In this document: positions 14,159 through 64,000 of the stretch, in pieces
Layout of the letters: every line of letters begins with the position of its first letter
Numbering within the stretch: the stretch's first letter is position 1
Assembly (NCBI RefSeq): GCF_000372725.1
Contig: NW_005201551.1
Location: forward strand, 156,520-220,519
Origin: Emiliania huxleyi CCMP1516
Taxonomy: Eukaryota
Length of the DNA: 64,000 nucleotides
Reading direction: 5' to 3'
Program-made: the position numbers and the translations under genes
The notes under the pieces: model-generated
Databases searched by the model: none
What the model saw: only the letters and a program-made list of their open reading frames with translations
What the model was told of the DNA's origin: nothing

Positions 14159-17529
<3,371 letters not shown>

Positions 17530-17629: not shown

Positions 17630-18893
17630 GAGAAGGTCAGGTGAACTTCTCCACACACACAGAAGGTGTGGTGGGGCAGGGCCAGGCTAGTCCCTCGCGT
17701 CTCCACGTCTAGACGACACAGCGGGCTCCTCGCCGCCAAACTAGCTGTGAACAGCGTCTCTACACACCTCTAGCTGTGAACAAGTGTGCCGCACCTTCTC
17801 GCCGCCAAACTAGCTGTGAACAGCGTCTCTTCACACCTCTAGCTGTGAACAGGTGTGCCGCACCTCCTCGCCGCCAAACTAGCTGTGAACAGCGTCTCTT
17901 CACACACCTAGCTGTGAACAGGTGTGCCGCACCTCCTCGCCGCCAAAGACCCACGAGAGGAACTGGGCGCCTAGATCTCGCGTCATCTCGCGTCATCTCG
18001 CGTCATCTCGCGTCATCTCGCGTCATCTCGTCCGCGAATCGCAGAGAGGGACTGCGCGCAGTAGACGCCCGTCTCGGCGAGGGCGGAGCAGGAGCCGGCG
18101 CCTAACCTCGGGGATACTCTCGGGTATCATCTCGGGTCTAGTCTCGGCGAGGGCGGAGCAGGAGCCGGCGCCGTCGTTCTGGCAAAAGGAGACGTGGGCA
18201 GACGTCACGTCTCCGATGGCGCCTGACGACGGGGCTCGGAGGAGTCTCGGAGGTGTGTCGGAGGAGTCTCGGAGGAGTGTCGGAGGTGTCTCGGAGGTGT
18301 GTCGGAGGTGTGTCGGAGTTGTGTCGGAGGTGTGTCGGAGGTGTCTCGGAGGAGTGTCGGAGGAGTGTGTCGGAGGTGTGTCGGAGGTATGTCGGAATTG
18401 GCTCGGGAGCGTCTAGGAGGGCGCCGGAGGAGAGCAGCTCGCGCAGCGCCCGCATCGCCGGGAAGAAGCGGCTCCACACGCCGTGCAGGAAGAAGAGCCC
18501 GCGCTCCCGCGCGAGCGCGAGCACCTCCGCCGCCTCTGCCGCCGTCGGCGCCATGCTCTTCTCGCAGAGAACCGCCTTGCCCGCACGCAGGCAGAGCAGC
18601 GAGTCGGAGACGTGGCGCGTCGACGGCGTCGCGACGTACACCACGTCGACGGCGGGGTCGGCAACCAGCGCCTCGTACGAGCCGTGCGCACACGCGCCCA
18701 CTAGCCCGAGCTCCGCCGCAAACGCCGCCGCGCGATCCCCGCTCCGCGAGCCAACGGCGACGACTTCGGCGTCGCCTCGCATGGAGGTGAGGACGCGGCC
18801 AAAGTCGGAGGCGATGCTGCCCGTGCCGAGAATGCCCCAGCGGACCGGACGCCGCTCCTCTGCCACAACAGACACGAGAAAGAGCGCGAACAT
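17630..18893 (-). CDS. Gfo/Idh/MocA family oxidoreductase (dihydrodiol dehydrogenase-like), multi-exon, 3' end lost in a gap
   Basis: 'VRWGILGTGSIA', 'HGSYEALVADPAVDVVYVATP', 'GKAVLCEK' and 'WSRFFPA'. Introns at 18223-18424 and 18102-18171. Confidence 0.88.
17731..17947. repeat. Tandem repeat, 69-bp period, about 3 units, intronic
   Basis: 'cgccgccaaa' recurs at 17731, 17800, 17869 and 17938. Confidence 0.92.
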
Positions 18894-19300: not shown

Positions 19301-19345
19301 AGTCCGAAAAACGAATTTACGCAGTTTGATGGAAAAAGAGGGGGA

Positions 19346-19560
19346 TGAAGGTTGCAGCGAGAAGCGGCGAGAGACTGCGAAAAGAGATACGAAGAGGCAG
19401 ACTCCCCAGGGTGGGCGACGGCTAGCGCATCACACTCTCCTCTCCTTAAAATCCCTGTGTGGTGGCGGCGTGGTGCCGTTCTCCCATCCCTCCCTTGGGT
19501 TGTGTGTTTTCTTTCTTTCTTTTTACGTCCCTTGGGTTGTCTGTTTTCTTTCTTTCTTTC
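19346..19560 (+). mobile_element. Family C LINE-like element, short 5'-truncated copy with a duplicated (TTTC)n tail
   Basis: Near-identical to 51797-51970. The ORF ends ...RLPRVGDG*. Confidence 0.8.
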
Positions 19561-20301: not shown

Positions 20302-22224
20302 ATGTCGTCTTCTCCAGAGGCGTACAACACATACATGTCCCTCGGGGCGAGGAGCACCGCTGGCGTGATGAGCCGGCGCGCCGAGTACGGACGCGAAGAG
20401 CGGCGATGGCGGGGCGAGTCGCGACGGCGGTCGCGATCGCGTGAGCCGCGGGGCGACGAGCGTTGGCAAGGTGAGCAATGGCCGCACCATGACGGGCGGC
20501 AACACGAGCGGCGCGGCTACAACGACGCTTGGTGCGGAGGTCGCGAGCAGCGATGGCACGATGAGTCACAATGGCCCGATGAGCGCGAGCAACGGCCGCA
20601 TCATGACGGGCGGCATGACGAGCGACGCGGCTACGATGAACGTCGGTGCAGAGGCGAGCGCGAGCGCGGCTGGCACGATCGGCGCGATCACGATCCCAGG
20701 CGCGACCGACGCGGCGAGGGGCAGCCTCGGCACAGCGATGGCCGGGTGGGACCGCCCATGCACGGAGTGCAAGGACGCGACGAGCAGCAGAGCCGTCGCG
20801 ACGCACATGAGCGCCCCTCGTCTAGCGGCTCTGCTGCCGGTCAGCTCAACGCTAAGCAGCTCAGCAGCCACATCTCAAATGCTGGCAGCGCTGACGCATT
20901 GCTCGCGCTCTTTTCTGCCCACAGCGCGAACTTGAACCACATCCACGCTGCGAACCTGTGGAACAAACTGGGCAAGCAGCGCATCGAGCGGTGGCACGAG
21001 GAGCGGCTTGAGCAGCTGGTGCAGCGCACGCTTGACCTCGTCGCGTCATGCGAAGCACGCAATCTGGCGAACATCGCCCACGGCGTGGCAAAGTGCGGCC
21101 TGCAAGTAGGGGTTGTGCGTTCGCTGTACACGGCGGTGGCGGAGGCGGCGGTGCGCGGGGGGCTGGCTGGCTTCGACCCTCAGGCCCTAGCCAACACGGT
21201 GTGGGCGTATGCGACGGCGGGCGTGGCTGCAGACGCGCTGTACGAGGCGGTGGCGGAGGCGGCGGTGCGCAGCGGGCTGGCTGGCTTCATGCCTCAGAAC
21301 GTGGTCAACACGGTGTGGGCGTATGCGACGGCGGGCGTGGCTGCGGACGCGCTGTACGCGGCGGTGGCGGAGGTGGCGGTGCGCGGCGGGCTGGCTGGCT
21401 TCAAGCCTCAGGACCTGGCCAACACGGTGTGGGCGTATGCGACGGCGGGCGTGGCTGCAGACGCGCTGTACGCGGCGGTGGCGGAGGCGGCGGTGCGCGG
21501 CGGGCTGGCTGGCTTCAAGCCTCAGAACCTGGCCAACACGATGTGGGCGTATGCGACGGCGGGCGTGGCTACGGACGCGCTGTACGCGGCGGTGGCGGAG
21601 GTGGCGGTGCGCGGCGGGCTGGCCGGCTTTACGCCTCAGAACCTGGCGAGCACAGTGTGGGCGTATGCGACGGCGGGCCATTACCACCAGGCATTGCTTG
21701 CCGAGTGCTCGCGCGTGATCAGCGACTCGCTCGCGCGGGATCCGTCGAGGTGGAGCGAGGAGGACCGCCGTCAGCTGCACCAGTGGCAGCTCTGGCTCTC
21801 CCTTGAGCGAGGAGCAGACGGGCAGCAGCACCTCCTCTCCGATTCACAGCGCCAGCTCTGTCGCGACGCCATGCAACACACGCAAGTGACGATATCGCGC
21901 TTGCAGCGCTCGGTTGCAGCTGCCCTCGCCTCCGTCCAGTCTGGCTTCGAGGAGGAGTATCTCGAGCCGCGCACCGGCTACTCGCTCGACCTGGCGCTGC
22001 CCTCGTCACGCGTCGCGGTCGAGGTGGATGGCCCCTCTCACTTCCTGCTGCCCGACGGCCGGGGCGTACGCAAACCCAATGGGCCAACGCTGCTCAAGCG
22101 GCGCCTCCTCACGGCGGCTGGCTGGAGGGTGATCAGCGTTCCATTCTACGAGTGGAACGGCTTTGCGACAGCCAATGGGCAGCAGACCTATCTGGAGAGG
22201 GCGGTCGCTCCGCTCTTGGGCTAG
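20302..22224 (+). CDS. Intronless OPR-like 38-aa repeat protein with C-terminal RAP domain
   Basis: Five near-identical 38-aa (114-bp) units 'GLAGFxPQxLANTVWAYATAG...'. RAP motif 'GYSLDLA...VAVEVDGPSHF...KRRLLTAAGWRVISVPFYEW'. The true start may be downstream. Confidence 0.9.
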   Translation: MSSSPEAYNTYMSLGARSTAGVMSRRAEYGREERRWRGESRRRSRSREPRGDERWQGEQWPHHDGRQHERRGYNDAWCGGREQRWHDESQWPDEREQRPHHDGRHDERRGYDERRCRGERERGWHDRRDHDPRRDRRGEGQPRHSDGRVGPPMHGVQGRDEQQSRRDAHERPSSSGSAAGQLNAKQLSSHISNAGSADALLALFSAHSANLNHIHAANLWNKLGKQRIERWHEERLEQLVQRTLDLVASCEARNLANIAHGVAKCGLQVGVVRSLYTAVAEAAVRGGLAGFDPQALANTVWAYATAGVAADALYEAVAEAAVRSGLAGFMPQNVVNTVWAYATAGVAADALYAAVAEVAVRGGLAGFKPQDLANTVWAYATAGVAADALYAAVAEAAVRGGLAGFKPQNLANTMWAYATAGVATDALYAAVAEVAVRGGLAGFTPQNLASTVWAYATAGHYHQALLAECSRVISDSLARDPSRWSEEDRRQLHQWQLWLSLERGADGQQHLLSDSQRQLCRDAMQHTQVTISRLQRSVAAALASVQSGFEEEYLEPRTGYSLDLALPSSRVAVEVDGPSHFLLPDGRGVRKPNGPTLLKRRLLTAAGWRVISVPFYEWNGFATANGQQTYLERAVAPLLG

Positions 22225-27609: not shown

Positions 27610-28551
27610 AAGAAAGAAAGAAAGAAAACAGACAACCCAAGGGAGGGATGGGAGGACGGCACGCCGCCACCACAGAGGGATTTTAAGGAGAGGAGTGTGA
27701 TGCGCTAGCCGTCGCCCACCCTAGGGAGTCTGCCTCTTCCTATCTCTTTTCGCAGTCTCTCGCCGATTCTCGCTGCAACCTTCATGCCACCTCGCGTCCG
27801 TCCCACTCTCGTCGTTCTCTCCCTTGTCACTTCCTCCTCTGTCGCGTCATTCTCTTCTGCCTCGTCCTGCGCCGCCGCCGCCTGCCGTTCCCTTGTTCTC
27901 TCGGCTTCTTTCGCCTTTCGGCGCAGCTCCGCCCTCCTTGCTGCATATCCTGGCCCCTCGAGTCTATCGAGCTCCCCTCGCGCAAGGACCACATTTCTGA
28001 CTCCCACTCCGATCATTTGCCTCCAGGTCATGTTGTTGCTCAGGTCCACTCTCTCTTCGAACACTCGTGCCTCTACGGATGATGCCGGCGCTGGGGTCCC
28101 CTTCGGATGCATCGTGACATCTGACAACTGAATTTCCACTGGTTCGTCCTCCTCGGAGTCATCTTCCCCGTCCTCCTTCCGTTCGGCTCTTCGCTCGGTA
28201 CGTTCGGTGTGGCTCACCCTCCATGCCGTGAACAGGCGCTTTATCCACCCTATATTCTTCTCTCGTTCCTCTGCCCGTGCCTTGGTCTTGTCGTTGTTTC
28301 GCACCCATGTCTGTATGGCAATCGAGGCTGCCTTCCCCACTACCTGTAGTTCACTCGTCACCTCTCCCGCGAGCTCCCTTCTCTTTCTTTCGGGTATGGA
28401 GTCCGTGAGTGCGGGTAGCGTGCAGGCAATCACGGGCGCTATTTTGTCGTACTCCTCTTCGGCGAGCGCTCCAAATCTAGACCCTTTCGCCTTTAAGGAG
28501 GCTGCCCTCGCTCGTCTCAGGAATGTGGCGGTGTCTTTTGAGTCCGGCGCC
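27610..28551 (-). mobile_element. Family C LINE-like element, 5'-truncated, with 11-bp TSD
   Basis: Open C-terminal ORF ending RLPRVGDG*, 3'UTR and (TTTC)n tail. Flanked by the direct repeat TGAGCGAGTGA at 27599-27609 and 28552-28562. Confidence 0.85.
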
Positions 28552-28601
28552 TGAGCGAGTGAGCGCCTCCCTTCGCATGTTAGTGTATTTTTTTTCTCGC
28601 G

Positions 28602-30020
28602 ATGTCCACCCCGCCGCGCCGCTCGCGCCGCCTCGCCCGAGCCACAGACGCTCCCTCGCCCAGGACGCCGCCGCCCACCCGCCTCCTCGACCTCCCCACG
28701 GACCTCCTCGCGCGCGTCCTCTCTCACTTCCACAGCCCCATCGACATCGCTCGCGTCGCGGCCGTCTCGCTGCTCTTCCACGCCTCGCTTGCGCTGGAGG
28801 GCGTCCGCTTGTGGGCGCAAGGGCGCGGCTACGAGCTGCCGGCGCAGCCAGAGGATGAGAGCTGCGCCGTGCGGTGGCTGTGCTATTCGGCGCTGCTGCG
28901 CGAGTCCAACCCGCCGGCGAGGGTGGCGGCAGGCAATATGCACAGCGTCTTCATCGGCGGCGAGGGGCTCTCGTCGTGCGGCTGCGCGCCGCATCACATC
29001 CCAGGCCTCCTTGGCCATGGTGAGGGCGTGGCACGGCTCAACACGCCGACCCGCCTCCCGTCGACGCTGGGCGGCGAGCGCGCCGTGAGCGTGTCGGTTG
29101 GAGCATGGCACAGCCTCGCCCTCACCGGCGGCGGCGCCGTTTGGAGCTGGGGCCAGGGAGGCTTGGGTGCGCTGGGCCACGGTGACCAGCAGGGCCAATG
29201 GCAGCCGAAGAAGGTCGAGGCATTTGATCGCCGCATCGTCGCCGTTTCGGCGGGATGTCACAGCCTCGCCCTTACCGCCGACGGAGCCGTCTTAAGCTGG
29301 GGCTATGGCCATCTGGGCCACGGCGAGCTGCAGCTGCAGCTGCTGCCGAAGGAGATCGAGGCCTTGGCTGGGAGGCGCGTCGTCGCGGTCTCGGCGGGAG
29401 GAGGTCACAGCCTCGCCCTCACCGCCGACGGCAGTGTCTGGAGCTGGGGCTACGGTGGCTTCGGCCAGCTGGGCCACGGCGACGGACAGAACCAGCTGCT
29501 GCCCAAGAAGATCGAAGCCTTTGCTGACCAGCGCGTCGTCGCTGTGTCGGCTGGAAACGACCACGGTCTAGAGGACCACAGCTTCGCCCTAACCGCTGAC
29601 GGAGAGGTCTGGAGCTGGGGCAGTGGCGCATCTGGCAAGCTGGGCCACGGCAACTCGCTGCGGCAACTGCTGCCCAAGAAGGTCGAGGCCTTTGCTGGGC
29701 AGTGCGTCGTCGCTGTGTCGGCGGGAGTGCGTCGCGGCCTCGCCCTCACCGCCAACGGCAGCGTCTGGACCTGGGGCTTTGGAGGGCGAGGCCAGCTGGG
29801 CCACGGTGAGACGCAGGACCAGCTGCTGCCCAAGAAGATCGAGGCCTTGGCCGGCCAGCGCGACGTCGCTGTGTCGGCTGGAGGCGACCTCAGCTTCGCC
29901 CTCACCGCTGACGGCGCCGTCTTTGCCTGGGGCAGGGGCGACCTCGGCTGCCTAGGCCACGGAGAGGACCTGTCGGACCAGCTGCTGCCCAAGAAGATCG
30001 AGGCGTGGGTGCGGGACTGA
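28602..30020 (+). CDS. F-box + RCC1-repeat protein (intronless)
   Basis: F-box 'LLDLPTDLLARVLSHF...DIARVAAVSLLFH'. About 7 RCC1 repeats 'VAVSAGxxHSLALTADGxVWSWGxGxxGQLGHG'. Confidence 0.92.
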   Translation: MSTPPRRSRRLARATDAPSPRTPPPTRLLDLPTDLLARVLSHFHSPIDIARVAAVSLLFHASLALEGVRLWAQGRGYELPAQPEDESCAVRWLCYSALLRESNPPARVAAGNMHSVFIGGEGLSSCGCAPHHIPGLLGHGEGVARLNTPTRLPSTLGGERAVSVSVGAWHSLALTGGGAVWSWGQGGLGALGHGDQQGQWQPKKVEAFDRRIVAVSAGCHSLALTADGAVLSWGYGHLGHGELQLQLLPKEIEALAGRRVVAVSAGGGHSLALTADGSVWSWGYGGFGQLGHGDGQNQLLPKKIEAFADQRVVAVSAGNDHGLEDHSFALTADGEVWSWGSGASGKLGHGNSLRQLLPKKVEAFAGQCVVAVSAGVRRGLALTANGSVWTWGFGGRGQLGHGETQDQLLPKKIEALAGQRDVAVSAGGDLSFALTADGAVFAWGRGDLGCLGHGEDLSDQLLPKKIEAWVRD

Positions 30021-33214: not shown

Positions 33215-35541
33215 AATGGACCAGGGCGGAGTGGGGCAGCATGGACCAATACAGGCAAACGGGGAAGGGGGGGGGGGACTTTTGCCGCCAGCTGCCCAGC
33301 CCCTGCCGCATAGCGCGCATATTTCCTTTGCTCTCCCCTTGAGTTCCCGCAGCCAGCTGAGCCCGCCTCGCGCCCCTGCACATACTCCCTGCTCCATTTC
33401 GTGCCAGGCGCCCTCCGCAACGGCCCTCGCGGTGCTGGGCGCCGAGGCGCTCGGCTCCTCGCAGGGCGCGAGCCCCTGCAACCGCGCGCCCTCCGCCACC
33501 AGCGCCTCCGGCAGTGAGACATCGACAACCTCTTCACAGTCTTCGGACGGCACCGCGGACCTACCCGAGGTTGGCGCCGCGCCGTCGAGCTGCAGCGGTA
33601 CGTGCGTATGGGACCCAGCCACGGTCGGCGAGTCGAGCGAGACGCCGCTCGAGGACTACCTCGGCCGCGCCAGGCGCCCCTGGGGAGGGGCCCGGGGAGA
33701 GGGAGGGGGGAGAAGAGATCTCGCCCCGCGAATTAATGATTCTGTTTGGCCACGTGGCCCGCGCCAGGCGCCTTGGGGAGGGGCCGGGGAGAAGGAGGGG
33801 GGAGAAGAGATCTCGCCCCAAGATGAATACAATGAATGATTACTGTATTGGCCACCTCGCCCGCGCAGGCGCCCCCGGGGGGGGGGGGGGGGAGTATCGC
33901 TCCCCGAGATTGACATTAATAGAACTCTGTTATTACAACCGCAGGAGCGACCTCTCGGACTCCCGCCTGCGGAGCGTGTGGGAGGAGGCCGCCCTATCGG
34001 CCCTTCAGTCCAGCAAGGGAGACCACGCCGCGGCGCTGGCGGCCTTGCGGCTCGAGGAGCAGGCGGCGGCGGCGTCGCTCTTCTCTTCGGACGAGGTGGA
34101 TGAGCTCCGGTCGCTGCACGCGCGCTTCGGCGGCACCGACCTACGCCTCGTCACGAGGGCGCTCGGCGGGCGCCGCTCATTGGCCGAGGTCGTCGCGGCG
34201 GCATACAGATGTTTGCCTGCCCTGCGGAGAGACACGGACGTGGAGACGGTCTCGCTGCGTAGCCCACGCCAGCCGTCGCTTGCGCGGGCCTCCGTCGCGC
34301 GGGCCTCTGTCGACTCGCTCACCTCACTCGGCGCGATGATGGCGCACCGGCTGATCGAGGCTGCCCCCGCGGCCCTCTCCGTCGAGGCCGCCTCCGGCGA
34401 GTGGCTGCTCGCCGACTTGTGCGACGACGGCACGATTCTGCACTTGCCGGTCGATGGCGGCGTGCCGCAGCGATTTCGATCTCCCGGCGGGTTCGTCCGC
34501 TTCCTTCGCCCGTGGTTGAGCGCGGCTTCAGTGGAGGGGGGAAGCTGGACGGCGGTGCACTACAAGGGTTTGCCGCTCGACCTGATCCGCAAAGCCGCCA
34601 CCAGCGATGCAGACGCGTTGGGCGCGGTTGCCGCCGCCTCCGGTTCCCCCTCTGACGGCCGCGAGCCCACGCCACTCTCGCCCGGCGGCGCCGCCGCCAG
34701 CCAGCTTCGCCAAGCCTTACACGCCTCCTACCTGTTGGAGCGACGCACCGACGGCGCGCACGAACGATTGCTAGTGGACGACGCGGAGTTGGAGACGTAC
34801 GAAGTGGATTGCATCCTCGATCGCCGCCGCTCCAAACGCATGGACGGCGGAGCCTACGAGTACTTGGTATCGTGGGCGGGCTACGGCCCGGCGGACAATA
34901 CGTGGGAGCCGCGCGAATCCCTGCTGTGCCACGAATTGGTGGAGACGTTTGAGCTGGCGTTCGAGGCGCGTCGGCCCGCCGCCTCCCGCAGCCACGCCCG
35001 CCCCGCCGGCAACCGCGGTCGCGGTTCCTCGTCGCCGTGCCAGCCGAGGAGGCTTCCGAAAAAGAGGGAGCATGTTGCCAAGCGACGCGCCTCGCCGCCG
35101 CAGCCCTCCCGCGTGAGCAAGGCCGCGCGGGTGCCGGCGGTGGCGCCGGTCGTGGACCTCGTGGCGCTCGCAGCCAAGGAGCGGGAGGAGCAGCGCCGCC
35201 CTTGCATGTGCAGCGCGCCCTGCCGGCTGCAGCCGCTGATTGAGTCTGGTTGCATCGTGGCCGGCTCCCTCGCGCTCTCCGTGTGCATCAAGGGCGCGCT
35301 CACGTCCGCCGATGTGAGCGAGACCGGCGCGATCCGGCTCCCCTCCTCTTCGGGCGGCGGCGAGCTGCTCGAGCTCCAGACTCCATGCGCGCTGCTCCGC
35401 GTGGCACGCCGCCGCGCGGGCGTCGCCGTCGACAAGGGGCCGAGCGCCCGGACGACTGTGTTTTACAAGGGCGTCAGCCTCAACGCGCTTGCGCAGCCTG
35501 GCCAGGTGCGACGCGACCGCCGCAGCCGCGCGGCGACCTAA
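33215..35541 (+). CDS. Chromatin protein: ELM2/SANT-like + RAMA-like + chromodomain + second RAMA-like; GC-AG intron at 33674-33944
   Basis: Chromo: 'YEVDCILDRR...YEYLVSWAGYGPADNTWEPRESL'. SANT-like: 'FSSDEVDELRSLHARFGGTDLRLV'. RAMA-like: 'ADLCDDGTI...FRSPGGFV...WTAVHYKGLPLD' and 'ADVSETGAI...TTVFYKGVSLN'. Start uncertain. Confidence 0.8.
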
Positions 35542-42179: not shown

Positions 42180-42379
42180 GCGGATTGGTAGAGCTCAATC
42201 TTTTCAAGGAGGGGGCCGCCCCGAGCTTGAAGGCGCGAGACGCCCCCCCCTCGCCACTCGCCCCTCCCCCGCCCAATGCTCATAGCTCCTCCCCTCGCGT
42301 GCAGACGCTCGTCGTGGGCAACAAGGAGCAGCCTGAGCTGATGCCCGTGTGCGAGGAGCGCGGCATCAAGCTGTGCTGA
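42180..42379 (+). pseudogene. 3' fragment of a third HET-LRR family member
   Basis: 'KEGAAPSLK|intron|TLVVGNKEQPELMPVCEERGIKLC*' is homologous to the ends of the genes at 2186 and 60305, including the GC-AG intron. Confidence 0.8.
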
Positions 42380-42934
42380 GCCTCTCCAGCCGCGAGCGGC
42401 AACCAAGACCCTCGACGGGCGGCCCGCGGCAGAGTCCAGAGAGAGCTGGGGCCAGCGCGCGCAGCGGTCTCTATGGGGCTTATGCACATGCACATATACC
42501 GCTGAAGTGTTCGTCTCTGAGACCGAGAGAGGCTGATTCCGCTGGGAGTGCGTAATTTCTTTCGGTTGCCTCGATTTTAAAGCCCGCCCCGCGTGCTCGA
42601 TGCGCGTGAAGCCGTACACATGAGAGAGAGAGAGCGCGCGTAGGGCCCTTAATTAGGGGCCTAGAGAACACAAGTCACAACCCCCTCTCCCTTTTCTCCC
42701 AGTGTAAGCCGCAAAGCGTAAAGCTAAAGGTACCCGCCCCTGGGGGGCCCATTCTTCATACCCATGGGGGATTTTCCCCCAAACGGGACAGTACATGCCC
42801 CCCTGATGGGCATGGCATTTCCAGCAAGCCCCCCCCCCCCCCCCCCCAGCGTATGGGGCCATATCTTGAGAGATCCCCGCTGCGCTGCGCTCTCCTGGAG
42901 CGGACTGCCGACGCGACTAGCCTGCTCAACGCCT

Positions 42935-44550
42935 TCAGATGTCGCCGACAAACTCGGCGCCCTCCTTGGAGCGCTGCAGCCACTTTGCACAGTTGAGCGC
43001 CGTCGGCACGACGATGACGGCGCCCGCGGCGGCGCCGAGCAGTTCGTCGGAGACCTGGACGCCCGCGACGAGCGCGGGCAGGTACTTCGCGGCGTAGGCG
43101 AGGCCGCCCGAGAGCGCGAGCAGCTTTGCGAGGAAGGCGGCGTTGCCGTCCGCCGCCCACGCCTCGCCCAAGTCCTCCCACCCGACCAGTGCGGCGGCCT
43201 GCGACGGCGGCGGCGCAGCGGAAGCGGAAGCGGCGGCGGAAGCGGCGGCGGAAGCGGCGGCGGAAGCGGCGGCGGAAGCGGCGGCGGAAGCGGCGGCGGC
43301 AGAGGAGGCGGCGGACTCATCGGACGCTGGTGCAGACGCGGCGCCACCTTCTGATGGCGACTCGCCCCGGGCGGATGCTAGGAGGGCCGCCCAGGCGGCA
43401 GCTGCCTCGTCTGCGCCCGCCTGCCATGTCCAGCCACTGGCGAGTGCGAGGCGGAGGCAGGCGAGCGCCAGCGTGGTGTTGCCGACACACGTCATCGCCG
43501 CCTGCAGGAGATATGGGGAGATAAAGGGAGATGGGGGGAGAAAGGGGGAGAAAGGGGGAGATATGGGGAGATATGGGGAGATGCGGTATCGCCGCCTGCA
43601 GCGTGACGCACCACGCGATGGCGGGCGCCTGCAGGAGATATGGGGAGATATGGGGAGAGGTGGGGAGATGTGGGGAGAGATGGGGAGACGGCGGGCGCGT
43701 TGTAGAAGAGGTGGTACGTGCACGCGACAATCCCCGACGTGTGGAGCGGCAGCATGCCCCAGGTGACGCCTTTATTAATTAACGAGCGTTAATAATTACC
43801 ATTGCATTAATTAACGAGGCGCAGCATGCCCCACGTGACGCCTCTCCACCTGGGTTGTGCCACCGCGTCGGCGTACCGCCAGGCGAGCCCCATCGCCACA
43901 AGCCACTCCACCAGCGACGAGGTGTGAATGACCCACGTGGGCATCGACAGCGCGTTGGACGGCTCCGCGGGCCAAAGCCCGGCGGGCGCGTTGCCGATCC
44001 CGCCCAGCCAAGGCGTGTGCACCGAAGCCCCGCCGGAGGCAAAGACCGCCACCGCCGACAGCGCCGAGAGGGAACCGAGCGCGGTGGCGGCAGCGCGGAG
44101 CGACGCTTCGTCCGCCGCCGGAGCGCGCACGCCCTTCTCCTCCACGTCGATCGCGTCCCGAAACCCGAAGACGACGACGCAGTTGGTGATGGCGAGCAAC
44201 GACTCGGCCGATCCATGCAGCCAATCGGCGTCGGCGAGGCTGACGCCGAAGAGGGCACCAGCGCCAATCGCCGCCGGGATGGAGCCGAAGACGAAGGCCA
44301 GCAGGAAGGTGAGGCCAAATGTCACTCCCGGAGGCGCGCCAACCGTCGGGTGCTTTAGCCAGTACAGCATCGCCAGCCACGGAAAGAGCGAGGCGCCAAA
44401 CAGAGATCCGGCAAGCTCGTCAGCGGTCGAGGAGAGGGCTCCGCCGCCGTCGGCTAGCAGGAGGAGCTCTGGCGCGGCCAGCGTCACAGGGCCGGCACGC
44501 AACGGTGAGGTACTTGCCGGGCCAAGCCGAGGGAGCAACGGAGTGAGCAT
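42935..44550 (-). CDS. Ycf49-like membrane protein (DUF3593 + DUF2499); introns at 43770-43841, 43629-43698, 43502-43595
   Basis: 'LFGASLFPWLAMLYWL...DWLHGSAESLLAITN' and 'NALSMPTWVIHTSSLVEWLVAM'. The spliced product reads 'GMLPLHTSGIVACTYHLFYNAPAIAWCVTLQAAMTCVGN'. Confidence 0.88.
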
Positions 44551-45957: not shown

Positions 45958-46729
45958 ATCGTTGCCGACGTGTCGCATCTTTGCCGGCAGAGGCGCGGGC
46001 GGCTGCACTGTGGGGGGGGTACCGAGCAGTGCACGGCCGCTCCCCTGCTGTGATACACGAGACCCAGGTCCACGCACCCTCCATTTGCATAACCCGCGCC
46101 CCAAAACATCAAGACATGCCAGCCCCCTGCTCTCCACGGTGGTCATTGACACACACGTCACATGGTCACCCCCGCCCTAGCGATATGTCCACCGGGCGCC
46201 GCTCCAACAGCACATCGAGCCGCCCGCCGCCCGCCCCGCCAGTGCTCGCGCTCACCTCGCAGACGCGCGCGGCGACCCTCCGCCCTCGCTGCCCTCCCGC
46301 TGCGAGTCCTGCAGCAGCGCCGTCCCCTGAGGAAAGGAAGGCACGGTGAGGCAAGGTGAGGGAAGGGAAGGTGAGGCAAGGCAAGGGAAGCTTCTCCACA
46401 CACACGAGGTGGTGGGGCAAGCGCGGCATTGGAAGTGCAAGGCCCGGTGCGCGTGGGTGGGCGGTGTGAGCGGTGTGAGCGGTGTGCGAGTGAGTGATTG
46501 TCTCTGCGTCTGTGTGCTGTGTGCCTCGCCGCCCTCCTCGTCCTCCTCCGATGGAACCTCGGTGTACGAAGGGCCAAACAGCGGCAGCCGAGACCACTGG
46601 CAGAGCAGCGCCTAAAAACGAGTCAACGCGGCCTTACGGGACATGGATCAGCGGCAGCCGAGACCACTCGCAGAGCAGCGCCGCGCACGCGCAGTCGACG
46701 GCCGCGCCGCACGCGCCACGCCGCCGCAC

Positions 46730-49700
46730 CTAGTTAAATTTAATCCGCGATTCGCCGCGCCGAACTCTGAACTGGCCGCACGCGCCGCGCCGCCGCCGCA
46801 CCCACGCCGAAGTCTCGTCGACGACGAGGCAGAGGCAGACGGCGGAGACGATCGCGAGGCAGCCGCCTGATATGGGGAGATGTGGGGAGATGCGGGGAGA
46901 TGCGGGGAGGTATGGGGAGGTATGGGGAGAGATGAGCTGGCCGCTCTCTGGGGATTCGGCATCTGGAGACGTGGGGAGATATGGGGAGGTATGGGGAGGT
47001 ATGGGGAGATGTGGGGAGGTATGGGGAGATATGGGGAGGTATGGGGAGGTATGGGGAGATGTGGGGAGGTATGGGGAGATATGGGGAGGTATGGGGAGAT
47101 ATGGGGAGATGTGGGGAGACGTGGGGAGATATGGGGAGGTATGGGGAGGGATGCAGATTCGTCATCTACACAAGCGCCGGTGGAGACCATCAACGTCTCC
47201 ATCCCCGCCTCCTCGAGCAGCCACCCGCCAACCACAGGCCCAAAGACCTACACGTATGAGTCGCTCCTCGCTGGAACCAGCTATGAATCAGCGGCCAGCC
47301 GCCCGCCGCCGGCCCGAAGACCTGCCCGAACCGGTCGATGGAGCCGGCCAGGCCCTGCATCACCCCTTGCTCCACCGGCACGTGCCTGCGGGAGGTTGCG
47401 GGAGATTGCGGGAGATTGCGGGAGGTTGCGGGAGGTTGCGGGAGGTTGCGGGAGGTTGCGGGAGATTGCGGGAGGTTGCGGGAGGTTGCGGGAGGTTGCG
47501 GGAGGTTGCGGGAGGTTGCGGGAGATTGCGGGAGATGTGGCCGGGGGGTTTTGTATTTGCCTCCGCCCACTAGCTCCCGGCTGTCTCTCGGCGGCATCTC
47601 GGCGGCATCTGGAGCATCTCGGCTGCATCTCAGCTGCATCTCGGCTGCCTCCCGGCTGCCTCTCGGCTGCCTCCCAGCTGCTTCCCGGCTGTGTCTCTCG
47701 GCTGCCTCTCGGCTGCATCTCGGCTGCATCTCGTCTGCCTCTCGGCTGCCTCTCGTCTGCATCTCGGCTGCATCTCGGCTGCATCTCGGCTGCATCTCGG
47801 CTGCATCTCGGCTGCATCTCGTCTGCATCTCGGCTGCATCTCACGAGAAGAGCGTCGAGATGCACGGCACGGCCAGCCCGTACCCCAGCGAGATGAGTCC
47901 GAGGCAGGGGACGAGGGAGGCGACCTAATTAATTAACTAGGCGCCCCCTCTTAATTCATTAGATGAGTCCGAGGCAGGGGACGAGGGAGGCGACCTAATT
48001 AATTAATTCGGCGCCCCCTCTTAATTCATTAGATGAGTCCGAGGCAGGGGACGAGGGAGGCGACCTAATTAATTAATTAGGCGCCCCCTCTTAATTCATT
48101 AGATGAGTCCGAGGCAGGGGACGAGGGAGGCGACCTAATTAATTAACTAGGCGCCCCCTCTTAATTCATTAGATGAGTCCGAGGCAGGGGACGAGGGATG
48201 CGACCTAATTAATTAATTAGGCGCCCCCTCTTAATTCATTAGATGAGTCCGAGGCAGGGGACGAGGGATGCGACCTAATGAATTAATTAGGCGCCCCCTC
48301 TTAATTCATTAGATGAGTCCGAGGCAGGGGACGAGGGAGGCGACCTAATCAATTAATTCGGCGCCCCCTCTTAATTCATTAGTTTGGCTGAGGCAGGGGA
48401 CGAGGGATGCGACCGAGGCGACGGCCGCAAGGCCCGCGTAGCCGAGCGATGTGCATGCCATGGCCAGCACGAGCGTGCGCTGCTCGCCCAGGGACCCGTT
48501 GATGACGCGCACGAGCACGCCCTGCACGAACATGCCTCCCACGCCCATCGCAGAGACGGCGAACCCAACCTGAGAGAGGGGTGTGTGGGGGGAGAGACGG
48601 GAGATATGGAGAGACGTGGCTCCCACGCCCCATCGCAGAGACGGCGAACCCAACCTGAGAGAGGGGTGTGTGGGGGGAGAGAGACGGGAGAGATGGAGAG
48701 ACATGGCTCCCACGCCCCATCGCAGAGACCGGCGAACCCAACCTGAGCGACGCGGGCGCCCCAACTGATTCATCCTTCACCCCCCCCACCCCACCCACCC
48801 ACACCCACACCTCGCAAAGACCATCTAGGCCTCGAGATAGGGGGAGATAGGGGGAGATAGGGGGAGATAGGGGGGAGATAGGGGGAGATAGGGGGAGATA
48901 GGGGGAGATAGGGGGGAGATGGGGGGAGATGGGGGGAGAGAGGGGGAGAGAGGGGGAGATAGGGGGAGAGAGGGGCACCTCCTTTGGCCCAAAGTCGAGC
49001 GCCTCCTCGCACAGGTACGGGAAGTTGGACCTAAAAAGAAGTCTACGATGCCGACACAATTCTTTTCTAGGTAAAGCACAGGTACGGGAAGTTGGACTTG
49101 TACGCCGCGAAGGCGAAGCGGAAGAAGAAGTTGAGCGCGAGCAGCGGCACCACGTTGAACTTTGCGAGGTAGCTTAGCCTGCGCGCTGAACACGCCGACA
49201 TGAGGGCGGGAAGACTTCTCGTCTACCTTGCCCAGAGCGCGCACACTAGCGCCCGCGCGCTGAGTACGCCGACATGAGGGCGGGAAAACGGTACTTGTGC
49301 AGCGTCTTCAGAGCACCGCGTGAATACGGGGGGGGGGGGGGGGGGCGACTACAGTTGAATACGGCTGAATACGGCCGAGTACGGCGGAGTGCGTGTCCTC
49401 TCGAGCGCTGGTTGGAGCACAAGAACACGTCTTCCGCTTCTAGGTGGTACGCGCAGCAGCCACAGGCTGCGCGCGCCGCGGCCACACGGCCCGCAGTTCT
49501 CGAGCACCGACGAGCCTTCGTCAAGCAGACACCCGGGGTCGGGGCGGGAGATGCCATCTCGCGCTGTGTGCTCAGATCTCCCCACACCTCCCCCCATCTC
49601 CCCCCATCTCCCCAGATCTCCCCCGATCTGGCGCAGCGTGCTCGCAGCACCGTGTGGAGACGAGGGGTGGGAGGACGGTGAGTACACTCTTGAGTACGGC

Positions 49701-50049
49701 CGAGTAGCGGCGGAGTGCGCGTGCCCTCTGGAGCGCTGGTTGGGAGACATGAATGCGTGCTCCGCCGCGAGATATGGGGAGATACGGGGAGACCTGGGGA
49801 GATATGTTTCGCTTCTAGGCCGACGATCCTCCGCCGGACGCGAGATATGGGGAGATATGGGGAGATATGGCGAGATCTGGCGAGATATGGGGAGATCTGG
49901 GGAGATATGGGGAGATCTAGGGCCGACGATCCTCCGCCGGACGCGACCTCGACGCGAACGTACTTGACGCCGTGGTCGTACTTGTGGCCGCCGGGTCGAT
50001 GCGCAACGCCAGTGCCTCCTCCTCCTCCACCACCACCACCACCGCCGCC

Positions 50050-50096
<47 letters not shown>

Positions 50097-51543
50097 TGCC
50101 TCCGCCACCTTTGCCGCCTCCGCCGCCGCCGCTTCCGCCCTCGCCCGTCGACCGCTCCATCTGCACTGGGGGCGTGGGGCTGGCTGCCGAGGGCTGCCTG
50201 GAGAGGTTTGCGGAAGACGACTGCCGCGAGAGGCGAGAGTCGATCAGCCTGTTCACAGCGGGAGGTGTGAAGAGCCGCCGTTCACACCTCACCACCGAGT
50301 CGGAGCTGCCGAGGCACTTCTCGTCCGGCTGCCAGAGCGCGCACACTAGAGCCCCGGAGATGAAGATTGCGCAAGCGACCAGCGCGCACACGCGCTTGCC
50401 GCCGAGCGCCGTCGCGCCTAGCGGCCGGGGGAGGGGTAGCTGACCTTTGGCCGTCGCGAGGCACCAGCGGCCTGCTCTTTTCACGCGCATCTACGCTCTT
50501 GGCGCTGCGCTACGCGTGTTGCGTGCGCAGCGGTGCGGCAGTCAGTCTTGGCTGCAGCGCAGCGGACCTCGGCTGCATCCCGCGCCTTGCAGCAGCGCCG
50601 GCGCAAACTCCGAGACATCTCCCCATATCTCCCCATCTCTCCCCATATCCCGCGCCTTGCAGCAGCGCCGGCGCAAACTCCGAGACGGCGCCGCCAATGA
50701 GAGGGCCGAGGATGAGAGCGCCTGCGGGCGTGGCGTCAGGGTTAGGGCTGGGGTTAGGGTTAGGGTCAGGGTTAGGGTTAGGGTTAGGGTTAGGGTCAGG
50801 ATTAGGGGTAGGCTTAGGGTTGGGCTTAGGGTCAGGGTCAGGGTCAGGGCCAGGGTAGGGTCTGGGAAGGGTTAGGGATAGGGTAGGGTCTGGGATAGGG
50901 TTAGGGTTAGGGTAGGGTCAGGGTCAGGGTCAGGGTAGGGTCTGGGATAGGGTTAGGGATAGAGCGCCGTTGAGGGTGACACCCATCAGCCCAAAGGTGC
51001 CTAAGGCGGACGCGCACGGGCATGCGTCAGCCTCAGCGCGTCGGTGAGGCGACCATCATGCGGCAGCTTGCTGCCCGTCCGCTTGTCCTTACTGGTAGTG
51101 TCAGCAAAGTACGCGCGGAACAGGGCGATCTGGAAGCCGGATCCGGTGATGACGCGCGCGGCGAGCATCATCGGGTAGGAGGAGGAGAGGCCGAGCAGCA
51201 GGCAGCCCGCTGCAGACACCAGCAGCGACACGAAGATGACGTTCCGCCGGCCGAGCGAGTCGGAGAGCGCGCCGAGCAGCGGCGAGAGGATCGTCTGGCT
51301 CATCCAGGTGGCGGACTGGAGGACGCCGTAGGCGGAGCGGGAGTAGCCCATCTCGCGCACTAGGAAGGGAAGCACCGGCACCAGCACCGTCTGGCCCAGC
51401 TGCGCCAGCAGGATGATCATGTACGGCCCGCACATGAACGTCGCCGGCCCGCAGGCGCCGGGGTGCCAGCCCTTGGCGATGCCCATCGGCAGGTGGATGG
51501 TGACGGGCACCCATATCTCCTCGGCGCCGCCGCCGGCCGCCAT
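46730..51543 (-). CDS. Major facilitator superfamily transporter (TetA/DHA1-like) with many repeat-filled introns
   Basis: 'SPLLGALSDSLGRRNV' (MFS motif A), 'RAYFADTT', 'ILGPLIGG', 'NFFFRFAFAAYKSNF' and 'EQGVMQGLAGSIDRFGQVFGP'. Exact 3' end uncertain. Confidence 0.85.
47892..48414. repeat. Intronic tandem array, 70-bp period, 7 units (exon copy + TTAA-rich spacer)
   Basis: 'agatgagtccgaggcagggg' recurs at 47891, 47961, 48031, 48101, 48171, 48241 and 48311. Confidence 0.97.
50735..50960 (+). repeat. Interstitial telomere-like (TTAGGG/TCAGGG)n tract inside an MFS intron
   Basis: Degenerate hexamer repeats gggtta/gggtca. Confidence 0.92.
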
Positions 51544-51653
51544 CGCCGCAGGTGGTTCAGCCGACTCGGAGAAACAGCCTCTCGCGGCGTCTCCTTGGTC
51601 TGCCCTCGGCGTGCACGCGTCGAAGGAAGAAAAACCGGAAAGCCCACAACCGG

Positions 51654-51972
51654 AGTTGCGCCGAGAGGCGAAAGAAGCCGCGAGAACAAGGGACCGGCAG
51701 GCGGCGGCGTCGCAGGACGAGGCAGAAGAGAACGACGCGACAGAGGAGGAAGTGACAAGGGAGAGAACGACGAGAGTGGGACGGCCGCGAGGTGGCATGA
51801 AGGTTGCAGCGAGAAGCGGCGAGAGACTGCGAAAAGAGATACGAAGAGGCAGACTCCCCAGGGTGGGCGACGGCTAGCGCATCACACTCTCCTCTCCTTA
51901 AAATCCCTGTGTGGTGGCGGCGTGCCGTTCTCCCATCCCTCCCTTGGGTTGTGTGTTTTCTTTCTTTCTTTT
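51654..51972 (+). mobile_element. Family C LINE-like element, 5'-truncated, with 11-bp TSD
   Basis: Homologous to 27610-27930 (reverse) with a (TTTC)n tail. Flanked by CCCACAACCGG at 51643-51653 and 51973-51983. Confidence 0.87.
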
Positions 51973-60304: not shown

Positions 60305-61484
60305 TCAGTAGAGGCTGATACCGCGCTCCTCGCACACGGCCACCAGCTCAGGCTGCTTGTTGCCCACCCAGAGCACCTGCACGCGAGAAGAGGTGCGACG
60401 AGCATTGGGCGAGAGAGGGGCGTGTGGCGAGGGGGGCGTCTGGCGCCTTCAAGCTCGGGGCGGCCCCCTCCTTGAGGGCGGCGGCCAGCGCCTTGCAGCC
60501 CTCGTCGCCAATCTTGTTGCCGTTGAGATAGAGCGTCTCGAGCCGCGGCGCTGCCCCGCTCGCGAGGACCTCCGCCAGCTGCGCCGCCTCCGCGTCGCCC
60601 CAGCCGAGGTTGATGTAGTGCAGCTCGGTCGCCTTGCCAAACTGCTCCTTGAAGGCGGCCTCGTACAGCTGCTTCACCAGCGGCTTGTCGTCCTTGCCGT
60701 TGGTGAAGCTCTTCGTCTCCAGCTCCGCCGCAAACGCAGACGGCAGCAGCGGAGGGCGCCGGCCGCCGTCCTGGATGCAGTCGTTGGTGAGGCTGATGAA
60801 GCCGTACTCCTTGCCGGCGCGCATCTTGCCGAGGTCGAGGGAGAGGTCGCCGGCCTTTGTCAGGCTGGCCCAGCTGGCCTCGGTGTAGCACCAGCCGCGG
60901 TCAAAGTACTTGGCCACGTTGGTGCCCTCGGCCTGATCCTCCGCCTTGTGGCCGTCCGGGAAGGAGGTCAGCCGCAGCACCCAAGTGTGCTGGTGGGAGT
61001 AGAGCGTGCCGAGGCAGCCCAAACCCTCCTTGAAGAGCGCGTTCTGCTTCTTGGTGCGCATGACGCCGTTGGGGGGGTCGGGGTGCTGGTGGAGCGAGCC
61101 GAAGTCCCAAAAGACGCCGAGCCGCGTGATGAAGTAATTCGCTAGCAGGGCCTTGAGCGCCCTCGCGACGCGGGCGAGGTTGGCTCCGCGCGGGTCGGGG
61201 TGGTCCTTGGTCAGCCACGGGTAGGAGAGCGCAGCGACGGGAAGCCAGTCATACTCGGTGGTCGCCTCGATGAGGTCGGCGAAAGAGAGGAAGGCCTCTT
61301 TGGGCAGCGCCTGGCGGTGGGTGAGGACGCCGCCCGCCTCGGCGTGGCGGATGATCCACTGCGCGTCGAGGAGGGCGGCGGCGCCGCTCTCGAGGACACG
61401 CTCCAGGTCGCCGCCGCCGCGCTTGCGCCACAGCTCCAGCTTCTCCTCGTAGGCCAGGCCCGGCTTGCTCGTGCCGCAGCCCAT
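60305..61484 (-). CDS. HET-like domain + LRR protein, copy 2; N-terminal MGCGTS acylation motif; GC-AG intron at 60377-60446
   Basis: Highly similar to 2186-3490. Splicing the 70-nt GC-AG intron restores the homologous C-terminus VLWVGNKQPELVAVCEERGISLY*. Confidence 0.85.
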
Positions 61485-61619
61485 CGCTTCGCCTGCCTGT
61501 GTAAGGCCGATCGACTTTGAGCACCTGTCAACAGCGGCTCGGGCAGCGGCCGCGGCCGCAAACGTGAGCTGAGGGCGTGTCAAGATTGTTTGAGGATTGT
61601 TTGCGATTTTGGTTGAATC

Positions 61620-63223: not shown

Positions 63224-64000
63224 TCACCCCTCGCCCCTCACCGGCTGGCAGAGCAGCTCCGCGTCCGACTCCGAGTTTGCCACCATCGCGAGCACGTATC
63301 CGTGGCACTGCAGCGGCACGCAGAAACACCCGAGCGTCTTGCCGCGCAGGTCGCGCCGCGCCTGCGGAGCCGCGAAAAGAGGTGTGAACCTGTCGGCAGG
63401 TGTGAACGGCGCCTCTTGCCGCGCAGGTCCCCCGCCGCGCCTCCGCCCGCATCGCCGCACGCTCCGGTGCCATCAGCCAGCTGGCGTACTGCCGAATCAC
63501 GGACCCGCGGCTCGCGCCTCCCCCAATCGAGAAGGGGTGAGTTAGTTAATAGAGGTGAAGGGGAATTGATTCATCAACCCCCCCCCCCCCCCTCCCCTCC
63601 CCTCCACCCCCGAGAACGGGCTGATTAGCAAATGGGAACTCAACAACTAGTTGATAATAACGAGCGCGCCTCCCCCCAGCGAGAACGAGTGAACTAGCAA
63701 ATGCGAATGCAATAACTAATCGATGAAGGAGCGCGCCTCCCCCCATCGAGAACGGGTTCCCCCACCCCCACTTGTGGTGCCCCCCCGACGCGCTCTTCCC
63801 CTTCGGCGCCTATTAATTGATGGCAATAGCTCATTACACCTATTAATTAATGGCAATAGCTCTTCCCCTTCGGCGCCGCGTCCGGCCGGCCGACGTACAC
63901 CTATTAATTAATGCCAATGAACTAGCTCATTAAGCTCTTCCTCGTTGGTGGAGACGGGGGAGGCGTGGGGGGGGTCGGAGACGGAAGCCGAGTCAGAGGC
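63224..64000 (-). CDS. DUF4326-like protein, multi-exon, 5' end outside the window
   Basis: 'WGNPFS', 'IRQYASWL' and 'LRGKTLGCFCVPLQCHGYVL'. Intron at 63362-63440. Confidence 0.7.

What the first reader, a model, noticed from the sequence alone, without database searches (positions are those of the whole stretch)
47892..48414. About 70-nt quantum: repeat-bounded introns and their tandem amplifications share one unit length
Seen: most single repeat-bounded introns measure 65-72 nt (65, 67, 67, 70, 70, 72), with outliers of 79 and 94. Arrays of [exon copy + filler] have periods of 70 (7 units here), 69 (16274/16343/16412) and 69 (17731-17938). In the first two arrays each unit carries its own AG acceptor followed by a decoy exon start that runs into TAA-rich sequence. 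Inference: either a minimal spliceable length or a chromatin-linked length constraint, followed by slippage or unequal crossover. Splicing must skip many decoy acceptors or proceed recursively.
Basis: partly seen in the sequence, partly recalled or inferred. Interest (0 to 1): 0.72.

Follow-up and report, generated by a model that had tools for sequence, protein, structure and literature searches.

The report
Self-copying 70-base introns with exon duplicates
In the bloom-forming alga Emiliania huxleyi many short introns consist of a copy of the neighbouring exon plus a filler shared with unrelated genes, together about 70 bases long, and this array is seven such units stacked in one intron, which likely records an ongoing way of making new introns by copying pieces of old ones into duplicated target sites.

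Summary
The array is real: seven 69-70-nt units form one 489-nt GT-AG intron (47925-48413) of a minus-strand MFS transporter gene of Emiliania huxleyi; the head-to-tail junction is in 4 of 4 runs laid, and unit number appears to differ between samples. Each unit is a 33-nt copy of the next exon plus a 37-nt filler ending in AG, so every internal junction is AG|GT and any internal acceptor would regenerate the donor. The ~70-nt length holds beyond the window: 71 of 88 independent loci of one filler family carry a 14-47-nt copy of the downstream flank, 70 of them with a total of 59-85 nt (median 69), duplication and filler lengths compensating. Some fillers carry exon sequence captured from introns of unrelated genes. 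So the 'quantum' is one short intron, not a ruler for all introns (spliced lengths 168, 198, 311, 416 occur). E. huxleyi Introner families are already catalogued (Gozashti 2022, 2025 supplements) with target duplications unresolved or 2-4 bp; the long variable duplication, length compensation and carry-over were not found in what I could read. Recursive splicing and chromatin are untested. The scan's earlier notes held nothing on this DNA.

The parts
47925..48413 (-). 489-nt GT-AG intron made of seven stacked units (one of 69 nt, six of 70 nt)
   Evidence: Homologous MFS proteins align up to it and resume after it with the same residues repeated on both sides; GT..AG phase; RNA contig X11 stops matching at 48409 and X12 contigs end at 47925; the RNA joint itself was not printed
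48382..48413 (-). 5'-most, decayed copy of the downstream exon start; supplies the GT donor
   Evidence: Sequence and unit table; other versions in runs X3 and X4
47925..47961 (-). 37-nt TAAT-rich filler of the last unit, ending in the terminal AG acceptor; the seven fillers differ at a few sites
47892..47924 (-). True exon segment (33 nt) that is duplicated at the head of every unit
46326..51543 (-). Host gene: MFS_1 transporter with about 17 introns
   Evidence: Pfam MFS_1 7.5e-20; homologues 47-87% identical; 9 RNA joints inside it and one at its 3' end
46612..46681 (-). Single 70-nt GC-AG intron: 33-nt exon copy plus 37-nt filler
   Evidence: RNA joint skips 70
46730..46801 (-). 72-nt GT-AG intron with a decayed exon copy of about 25 nt
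47248..47321 (-). 74-nt GT-AG intron with an old 32-nt exon copy
   Evidence: score 14.5, null maximum 12
49031..49097 (-). 67-nt GT-AG intron: perfect 22-nt exon copy plus 45-nt filler
50249..50317 (-). 69-nt GT-AG intron carrying filler family A, without a significant local exon copy
   Evidence: RNA joint skips 69
50586..50655 (-). 70-nt insert whose 40-nt duplication holds both splice sites (AG|GC) around a 10-mer filler; predicted intron
   Evidence: not among the RNA joints shown
51001..51074 (-). 74-nt GC-AG intron without a significant exon copy
48530..48747 (-). Second array in the same gene, period 85-88, AG|GT at each junction
16276..16413 (+). Two 69-nt units (exon copy plus TAAT filler, AG|GC junctions) stacked behind a 10-mer intron in an HGH1-like gene
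   Evidence: frame after the array matches homologue P0157 by eye
17277..17343 (+). Single 67-nt family A unit; two units at this locus in L020, one in L071
17726..17947 (-). Three 69-nt units with family A in antisense and a 15-nt copy of the upstream exon end, inside an intron of a xylose-dehydrogenase-like gene
43770..43841 (-). 72-nt GC-AG unit with a 21-nt exon copy and TAAT filler in the neighbouring gene; 8 differences in 50 nt in run X3

Best explanation
The array is one intron built of seven copies of a short intron unit (exon copy plus filler) of a kind found across this genome, which likely arises when a staggered break or template switch duplicates 14-47 bases of exon and fills the gap with the 3' part of another intron, likely survives only if the result is a spliceable intron of about 60-80 bases, and is then likely amplified by unequal exchange between its long direct repeats. 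Steps shown: unit anatomy, strand, GT/GC/GA start of the duplicate, AG end of the filler, shared filler families in unrelated genes, captured foreign exon sequence, length compensation, differing unit numbers between samples. Steps inferred: (1) the break and templated fill (donor DNA entered at a short microhomology, often in register with the donor's 5' end, which would pass on the donor's ~69-nt length); (2) filtering by splicing; (3) amplification by unequal crossover or slippage, plus fresh insertions at existing AG|G junctions; (4) splicing of the array in one step or unit by unit, with the same final mRNA because each internal AG is followed by a GT in the same exon context.
For: Protein homology is continuous across the array with VASLVPCL on both sides. 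Junction in 4 of 4 runs; in X3 contig depths left 35, shared core 75, loop 37, exit 21.5 fit about one filler per haplotype with a perfect repeat, against seven in the window (depth ratios are a rough inference). 71 of 88 unique family A loci have an upstream copy of the downstream flank scoring above the best of 150 mismatched pairs; lengths 59-85, median 69, plus one 134 (two units); duplicate starts GT 31, GC 29, GA 7, other 4; G before it in 58 of 71. In 28 mismatch-free duplications the total varies by sd 3.2 nt against 8.4 if independent, 0 of 20,000 permutations as tight. Five of 3,828 locus pairs share 13-33 nt upstream of the core that is local exon copy in one locus and foreign in the other (L060/L052, L103/L111, L093/L101, L098/L084, L010/L085), with a sixth pair (L088/L104) sharing a linker; null maximum 8 in 19,140; flanks otherwise unrelated. 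Four of these 6 pairs share the first 3-5 bases (p about 0.01); lengths are equal in 3 of 6. 59 of 71 junctions read best as sense-strand coding, and only 3 of 71 inserts could be read through. Unit differences between samples at 3 loci (L020/L071, L067/L035, L076/L030) among 20 duplicate pairs. RNA confirms five 67-74-nt introns with or without copy plus a 69-nt family A intron.
Against: No empty (intron-free) DNA allele was shown: the L030/L076 difference is a second unit at an already intronic site and its direction is unknown; the joined form in X3 cannot be phased. No orthologue gene structures were available, so 'gain' rests on anatomy. 17 of 88 loci had no significant duplicate. The length compensation does not separate in-register copying from a two-sided length filter, and length similarity in the five non-whole pairs is not significant (p 0.11). 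The null for shared linkers did not include the family's own 3-7-nt consensus extension, so only scores of 13 or more were used. The loci were picked by an exact 26-nt match (young copies), come from five metagenome assemblies that may not be independent, and only L020 and L071 were shown to be this species. The RNA joint over the array was not printed. No enzyme was identified.
Confidence: 0.55

Rival explanations
1. RNA-templated insertion: an excised, debranched intron RNA is reverse-transcribed at a nick (target-primed, by a LINE-like or host enzyme), giving a fixed 3' end, a truncated 5' end with microhomology and a variable target duplication.
For: The filler ends exactly at AG in 71 of 88 loci; 5' ends vary and join at microhomologies; L084 leaves its donor at the AG although a 9-nt homology lies 6 nt further on; 59 of 71 are sense; units stack at existing junctions.
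Against: The 17726 array holds the family in antisense with 11 extra bases beyond the AG; L036 shares about 10 nt upstream of its donor unit's GT; some inserts take both splice sites from the duplication (50586-50655); precision and orientation also follow from selection.
Confidence: 0.22
2. Two steps: whole introns are inserted without duplication, as fungal and Micromonas introners are, and their 5' part is later overwritten in register from the spliced mRNA/cDNA or from an intron-free allele.
For: L052 is a whole 69-nt copy of the L060 intron with no duplicate; the 5' copy is perfect in X3 but decayed in the window and X4, and the reverse holds at 43770-43841, so the copy is re-homogenised from time to time; this predicts conserved length.
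Against: Whole copies are rare in the sample (1 clear, 1 partial among 88); it does not explain copies of the upstream exon at the intron's 3' end without a mirror process; no intron-free allele shown.
Confidence: 0.13
3. Purely local origin: tandem duplication of an exon piece with AG|GT (Rogers model), decay of part of it into low-complexity sequence, then minisatellite-type expansion.
For: Explains homogeneous arrays and inserts with both sites in the duplication; patchwork of variants among the seven units; the target filler's GC-rich middle pairs with the exon start (z -2.5, 2 of 200 shuffles), a hint of local templating.
Against: A 36-nt complex filler recurs at 88 unique loci and carries foreign exon sequence; stacked units with different fillers.
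Confidence: 0.06
4. A chromatin ruler (nucleosome or linker geometry) sets the ~70-nt unit, or a cut-and-paste MITE makes it.
For: Introner bias to linkers is reported for other algae (PMC9860276, section 8); some fillers have short inverted ends.
Against: Duplication length is variable (14-47) rather than fixed and short; 5 of 6 folded units are no more stable than shuffles; units of 85-94 occur; no chromatin data tested.
Confidence: 0.04

Closest known systems
Introner families catalogued in E. huxleyi CCMP1516 (Gozashti 2022, PMC9860276, Supplementary Tables 5-6; Gozashti 2025, PMC12130899, file sd07)
   Same: Same species; 5 families, 653 copies, average lengths 70, 70, 37, 37, 37 (2022); 3 families in 2025, one of about 70 nt noted '10bp terminal direct repeats, co-opt 5' carry 3'', which fits family A's core. 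Probably overlapping sets (sequences not seen).
   Different: Target duplication listed as '?' or 'N' (2022) or 2-4 bp or NA (2025), mechanism unknown or LTR-like; no record seen of 14-47-nt variable duplications, length compensation, captured exon sequence or stacking.
DNA-transposon Introners (Symbiodinium, Aureococcus, Chrysochromulina; PMC9860276 section 7)
   Same: One splice site carried, the other co-opted from the duplicated target; precise removal.
   Different: There the duplication is 3-9 bp and fixed, often with terminal inverted repeats; here it is long and variable and the element's 5' end is not fixed.
Intron gain by tandem genomic duplication of AG|GT and by double-strand-break repair with direct repeats in Daphnia (as reviewed in PMC3443670)
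   Same: Exon duplication supplies splice sites; direct repeats flank an inserted filler.
   Different: Here the filler belongs to dispersed families copied from other introns, the repeats are tens of bases, and the process is genome-wide.
Fungal introner-like elements and sister stwintrons (PMC8469720; PMC3443670)
   Same: Introns that resemble each other across unrelated genes; two-step excision known for stwintrons; RNA-templated repair proposed.
   Different: Those integrate seamlessly with no flanking duplication.
Recursive (ratchet) splice sites, AG|GT zero-length exons (recalled; search listing only)
   Same: Each internal junction is an acceptor followed at once by a donor.
   Different: Known cases subdivide very long introns; here the steps would be 70 nt and arise from unit duplication. 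Use of these sites is untested.
Non-LTR retrotransposon target-primed insertion (recalled)
   Same: Fixed 3' end, truncated 5' end with microhomology, variable duplication.
   Different: No poly(A) or simple tail, no coding partner found, and total length is nearly constant.

Membership tests
Introner (intron-generating mobile element, broad sense) | Similar intron sequence at many unrelated loci | tested here: met
   Family A core at 88 unique loci with unrelated flanks. For the target array's own TAAT filler only loose motif sharing was seen.
Introner (intron-generating mobile element, broad sense) | Spliced out precisely from exonic context | tested here: met
   RNA joint for the family A intron 50249-50317 and other units; 59 of 71 sense coding junctions; homology across the array
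Introner (intron-generating mobile element, broad sense) | Similarity reaches both intron ends | tested here: not met
   5' 14-47 nt is locus-specific exon copy in 71 of 88; met only by L052/L060
Introner (intron-generating mobile element, broad sense) | Empty site in an allele or orthologue | tested here: inconclusive
   Unit-level presence/absence in L076 versus L030 at an already intronic site; joined form in DNA run X3 cannot be phased
MITE / cut-and-paste DNA transposon Introner | Short fixed target-site duplication (3-9 bp) | tested here: not met
   14-47 nt, variable
MITE / cut-and-paste DNA transposon Introner | Terminal inverted repeats and fixed ends | tested here: inconclusive
   Semi-palindromic ends in some fillers, but 5' end variable; 1 of 6 folded units beat shuffles
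MITE / cut-and-paste DNA transposon Introner | Autonomous partner with matching ends | not testable with these tools
   No whole genome held
SINE / non-LTR retroposed element | Fixed 3' end, 5' truncation, variable duplication | tested here: met
   (3' end partly fixed by the search pattern)
SINE / non-LTR retroposed element | Structural-RNA-derived head, poly(A) or simple tail, LINE partner | not tested
   No tail seen in the 88 junctions printed; Rfam and partner searches not run
Tandem genomic duplication intron (Rogers type) | Intron is wholly a duplicate of adjacent exon with AG|GT in the repeat | tested here: not met
   Foreign filler of 26-57 nt present; both sites from the repeat only in some units
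Recursive splicing | AG|GT junctions inside the intron | tested here: met
   six internal junctions
Recursive splicing | Stepwise intermediates or lariats in nascent RNA | not testable with these tools
   The two raw-read runs did not cover the gene; contigs cannot phase a 35-nt repeat

The most novel reading that the evidence does not exclude
E. huxleyi introns propagate without a dedicated transposase: any ~69-nt intron can serve as template for a new one, entered in register through a few matching bases, so the 5' half is rewritten from each new target while the 3' half persists as a family core; the long direct repeat left behind lets units stack, expand and be lost, and AG|GT junctions make the stacks self-correcting in splicing. 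This would be a distinct, ongoing, genome-wide route of intron gain whose unit length is inherited.
Probability: 0.35. Interest if true: 0.85.

Novelty: new variant of a known kind. Interest (0 to 1): 0.64.

Why it matters
How new spliceosomal introns arise is a long-standing open question, and most catalogued Introner families have no assigned mechanism (about 72% per PMC12130899). Here each insertion keeps a readable record: the target copy, the switch point and sometimes the donor gene's exon. With public long-read genomes and Iso-Seq of this species, donor-recipient genealogies, DNA versus RNA templating, the lower and upper size limit of splicing, and 70-nt recursive splicing become directly testable. 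It may also explain why gene models in this genome are often wrong at intron boundaries (noted in PMC10290126): long repeats make junctions ambiguous, and searches that need similarity at both intron ends would miss most copies.

Tried and rejected
Plus-strand gene reading of the target array: rejected, homology and RNA joints are on the minus strand. Assembly artefact: rejected. Strict multiples of 70: rejected as a general rule. Raw RNA runs X18 and X20 gave no usable cover of the gene, only poly-G/C artefacts, so decoy use and recursion could not be counted. The tool skipped the array itself, and only the best-supported rows were shown (265 joints hidden). No whole genome was held. Family A had 0 matches in viral contigs. 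Folding gave no general hairpin signature (1 of 6). An unanchored search for copies carrying extra bases beyond the AG gave no clear case among the non-significant loci. P0154/P0155 did not give the spliced HGH1 protein past 14764. A possible different intron position in the Tisochrysis homologue P0040 was not used, because its source type is unclear. Papers not held: Read 2013 genome paper, two Huff papers; what I recall of them (10-11-bp repeats in introns, linker methylation) is unverified. Ten full-text searches (listings only) showed no paper on long exon duplications in haptophyte introns; supplements of Read 2013, the bioRxiv preprint, the cut part of the 2022 table, files 13-14 of the 2025 paper and the authors' GitHub files were not seen and may bear on novelty.

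Full report
Setting. The window is GC-rich eukaryotic DNA with N gaps. Two of its exons match Emiliania huxleyi proteins at 100% and 99%, so the organism is E. huxleyi or a very close relative. No whole genome was held.

Observation. The three arrays exist as described: periods 70, 69 and 69. The head-to-tail junction of the target array is present in contigs of 4 of 4 runs from 4 studies, so it is not an assembly artefact.

What the target array is. The host gene is an MFS transporter on the minus strand. Homologues align up to 48387 and again from 47924, with the peptide VASLVPCL on both sides. The only GT/GC/GA..AG phase is 47925-48413, 489 nt. It consists of a decayed 32-nt copy of the next exon's start plus a 37-nt TAAT-rich filler, then six units of a near-perfect 33-nt copy plus filler. 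Each filler ends in AG and each copy starts with GT, so the six internal junctions are acceptor and donor back to back. Splicing to any internal AG would rebuild the same exon-GT junction; this follows from the sequence, but whether it happens is untested. RNA contig X11 stops matching at 48409 and X12 contigs end at 47925, as expected for splicing, but the joint itself was not printed. Ten other joints in this gene were: 67, 69, 70, 72, 74, 74, 168, 198, 311 and 416 nt (15 of 280 joint rows shown). Of the six short ones, four have a significant exon copy and two (69, 74) do not. So about 70 nt is the size of a short intron here, and long introns are not generally multiples of it.

Variation between samples. 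In run X3 only four contigs were laid: left flank (depth 35), shared core (75), unit loop (37) and an exit to the upstream exon with a perfect copy (21.5). This fits about one filler per haplotype; an intron-free allele beside a two-unit allele cannot be excluded. X2 has at least three filler variants and the window's decayed copy; X4 has a differently decayed copy. Contig depth is only a rough guide. At 43770-43841 X3 differs from the window at 8 of 50 positions against 1 in the rest of a 498-nt contig; there the window's copy is the fresher one.

Beyond the window. A filler motif occurs six times at four window loci, one of them an RNA-confirmed 69-nt intron. Scanning metagenome contigs with its last 26 nt gave 116 loci. 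Of 126 matches, those too near a locus end (14) or followed by another unit (11) were set aside, leaving 103, or 88 after removing duplicates. In 71 of 88 the sequence just downstream of the filler's AG is repeated upstream, scoring above the best of 150 mismatched pairs. Duplications are 14-47 nt (median 27); totals are 59-85 nt (median 69) plus one double unit of 134; the copy starts GT, GC or GA in 67 of 71 and follows G in 58 of 71; lengths are spread evenly over the three frames. An ungapped scan to 300 nt found no long inserts other than multi-unit ones. In the 28 mismatch-free cases, total length has sd 3.2 against 8.4 expected if the parts were independent (0 of 20,000 permutations). 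A codon model trained on window exons of 71 junctions sense-strand coding (129 of 138 correct on its own training pieces), and only 3 of 71 inserts could be read through. Close repeats not involving this family also peak there: 33 of 61 at 60-80 nt, with TAAT, 10-mer, 11-mer and other fillers. Limits: young copies are favoured, five assemblies supplied the loci, and only L020 and L071 were matched to the window's species.

Copying between genes. In five pairs the sequence just 5' of the family core is a local exon copy at one locus and foreign at the other: L060/L052 (whole intron, no duplicate at the recipient), L103/L111, L093/L101, L098/L084, L010/L085; L088/L104 share a linker. Their flanks are otherwise unrelated. 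Recipient and donor share the first 3-5 bases in 4 of 6 pairs (p about 0.01); lengths are 69/69, 67/67, 71/71, 71/70, 66/72, 64/68, which for the five non-whole pairs is not significant (p 0.11). Among 20 duplicate locus pairs, three differ by a whole unit; in L076 a TAAT unit with a perfect 32-nt copy sits behind an older unit with a different filler and is absent in L030. L114 stacks three filler types behind the same copy. Stacks therefore grow both by amplification and by fresh insertion.

Other two arrays. The 16276-16413 units lie in an HGH1-like plus-strand gene with AG|GC junctions. The 17726 array lies inside an intron of a minus-strand dehydrogenase gene, with the family in antisense, a 15-nt copy of the upstream exon end, and 11 extra bases beyond the family's AG. 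After its last unit there is no donor, so that acceptor must be skipped.

Mechanism. Best supported (0.55): duplication at a staggered break or template switch, filled from another intron's 3' part, filtered by splicing, then amplified through the long direct repeats. An RNA template (0.22) explains the exact AG ends but not the antisense copy with extra bases. Seamless insertion followed by in-register overwrite (0.13) explains the whole copy and the re-homogenised copies. Purely local duplication and a chromatin or MITE ruler are weak. The length may be inherited from donors, imposed by splicing, or both; these data do not separate them.

Literature. PMC9860276: passages, sections 7, 8, 15, 23, outline and supplement rows read; it lists 653 Introners in five E. 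huxleyi families with duplications unresolved, and my motifs were not in the held, cut supplement. PMC12130899: passages and supplement rows; three families, one noted with 10-bp terminal direct repeats and a 2-bp duplication; its preprint, part 1 of 4 and a term search. PMC3443670, PMC8469720, PMC10290126, PMC2784329: passages only; the last reports two alleles differing by about 50 nt in an intron. Ten searches showed no description of the long duplications; several key papers are not held. Earlier scan notes gave nothing on this DNA.

Verdict. Observation confirmed, interpretation partly supported. The array is an amplified member of a genome-wide class of exon-copy-plus-filler introns: a new variant of Introner-type intron gain in a species where Introners were catalogued but not understood. 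Interest 0.64.

Noticed in passing
window 43770-43841: Run X3 differs at 8 positions within 50 nt of this intron but at 1 in the rest of a 498-nt contig; the exon copy is fresher in the window, the reverse of the target array, suggesting recurrent conversion or fast intron turnover.
   Followed up: partly
window 50738-50962: An intron of the MFS gene is filled with about 38 telomere-like AGGGTT-type hexamers, bounded by a 7-nt exon repeat.
   Followed up: no
window 46864-47842, 48834-48975, 49769-49916, 16008-17237, 18236-18396: Many introns are expanded by 10- and 11-nt tandem repeats, which change intron length in 10-11-nt steps between samples (window versus L020).
   Followed up: partly
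L114 (minus strand, 120-436): One intron stacks at least five units that share an exon-like head but carry three different filler types; L036 holds a copy of part of it in an unrelated gene.
   Followed up: partly
L030 versus L076, RasGEF-like gene by eye: The allele lacking the TAAT unit also has three changed bases at the exon start, possibly a scar of loss.
   Followed up: partly
window 49516-49931; family A loci: GA donors: one RNA-supported GA-AG phase in the MFS gene and 7 of 71 family A units; GC donors are as common as GT.
   Followed up: partly
window 2340-3490 and 60450-61490: Two intronless paralogous genes with leucine-rich-repeat-like ends on the minus strand, with a third fragment at 42200-42380; together with intronless repeat genes at 21000-22200 and 28600-30010 they lack the repeat-bounded introns of the conserved genes.
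   Followed up: no
window 19330-19530, 27700-27900, 51600-51950; 23660, 27230, 35690, 44960: Dispersed high-copy intergenic repeats (contig depth up to 350,000 in X3), probably transposon ends or remnants.
   Followed up: no
window 14770-14845, 33665-33945, 63540-63935: Further stacked TAAT-type units with periods 61-94 in other genes.
   Followed up: partly
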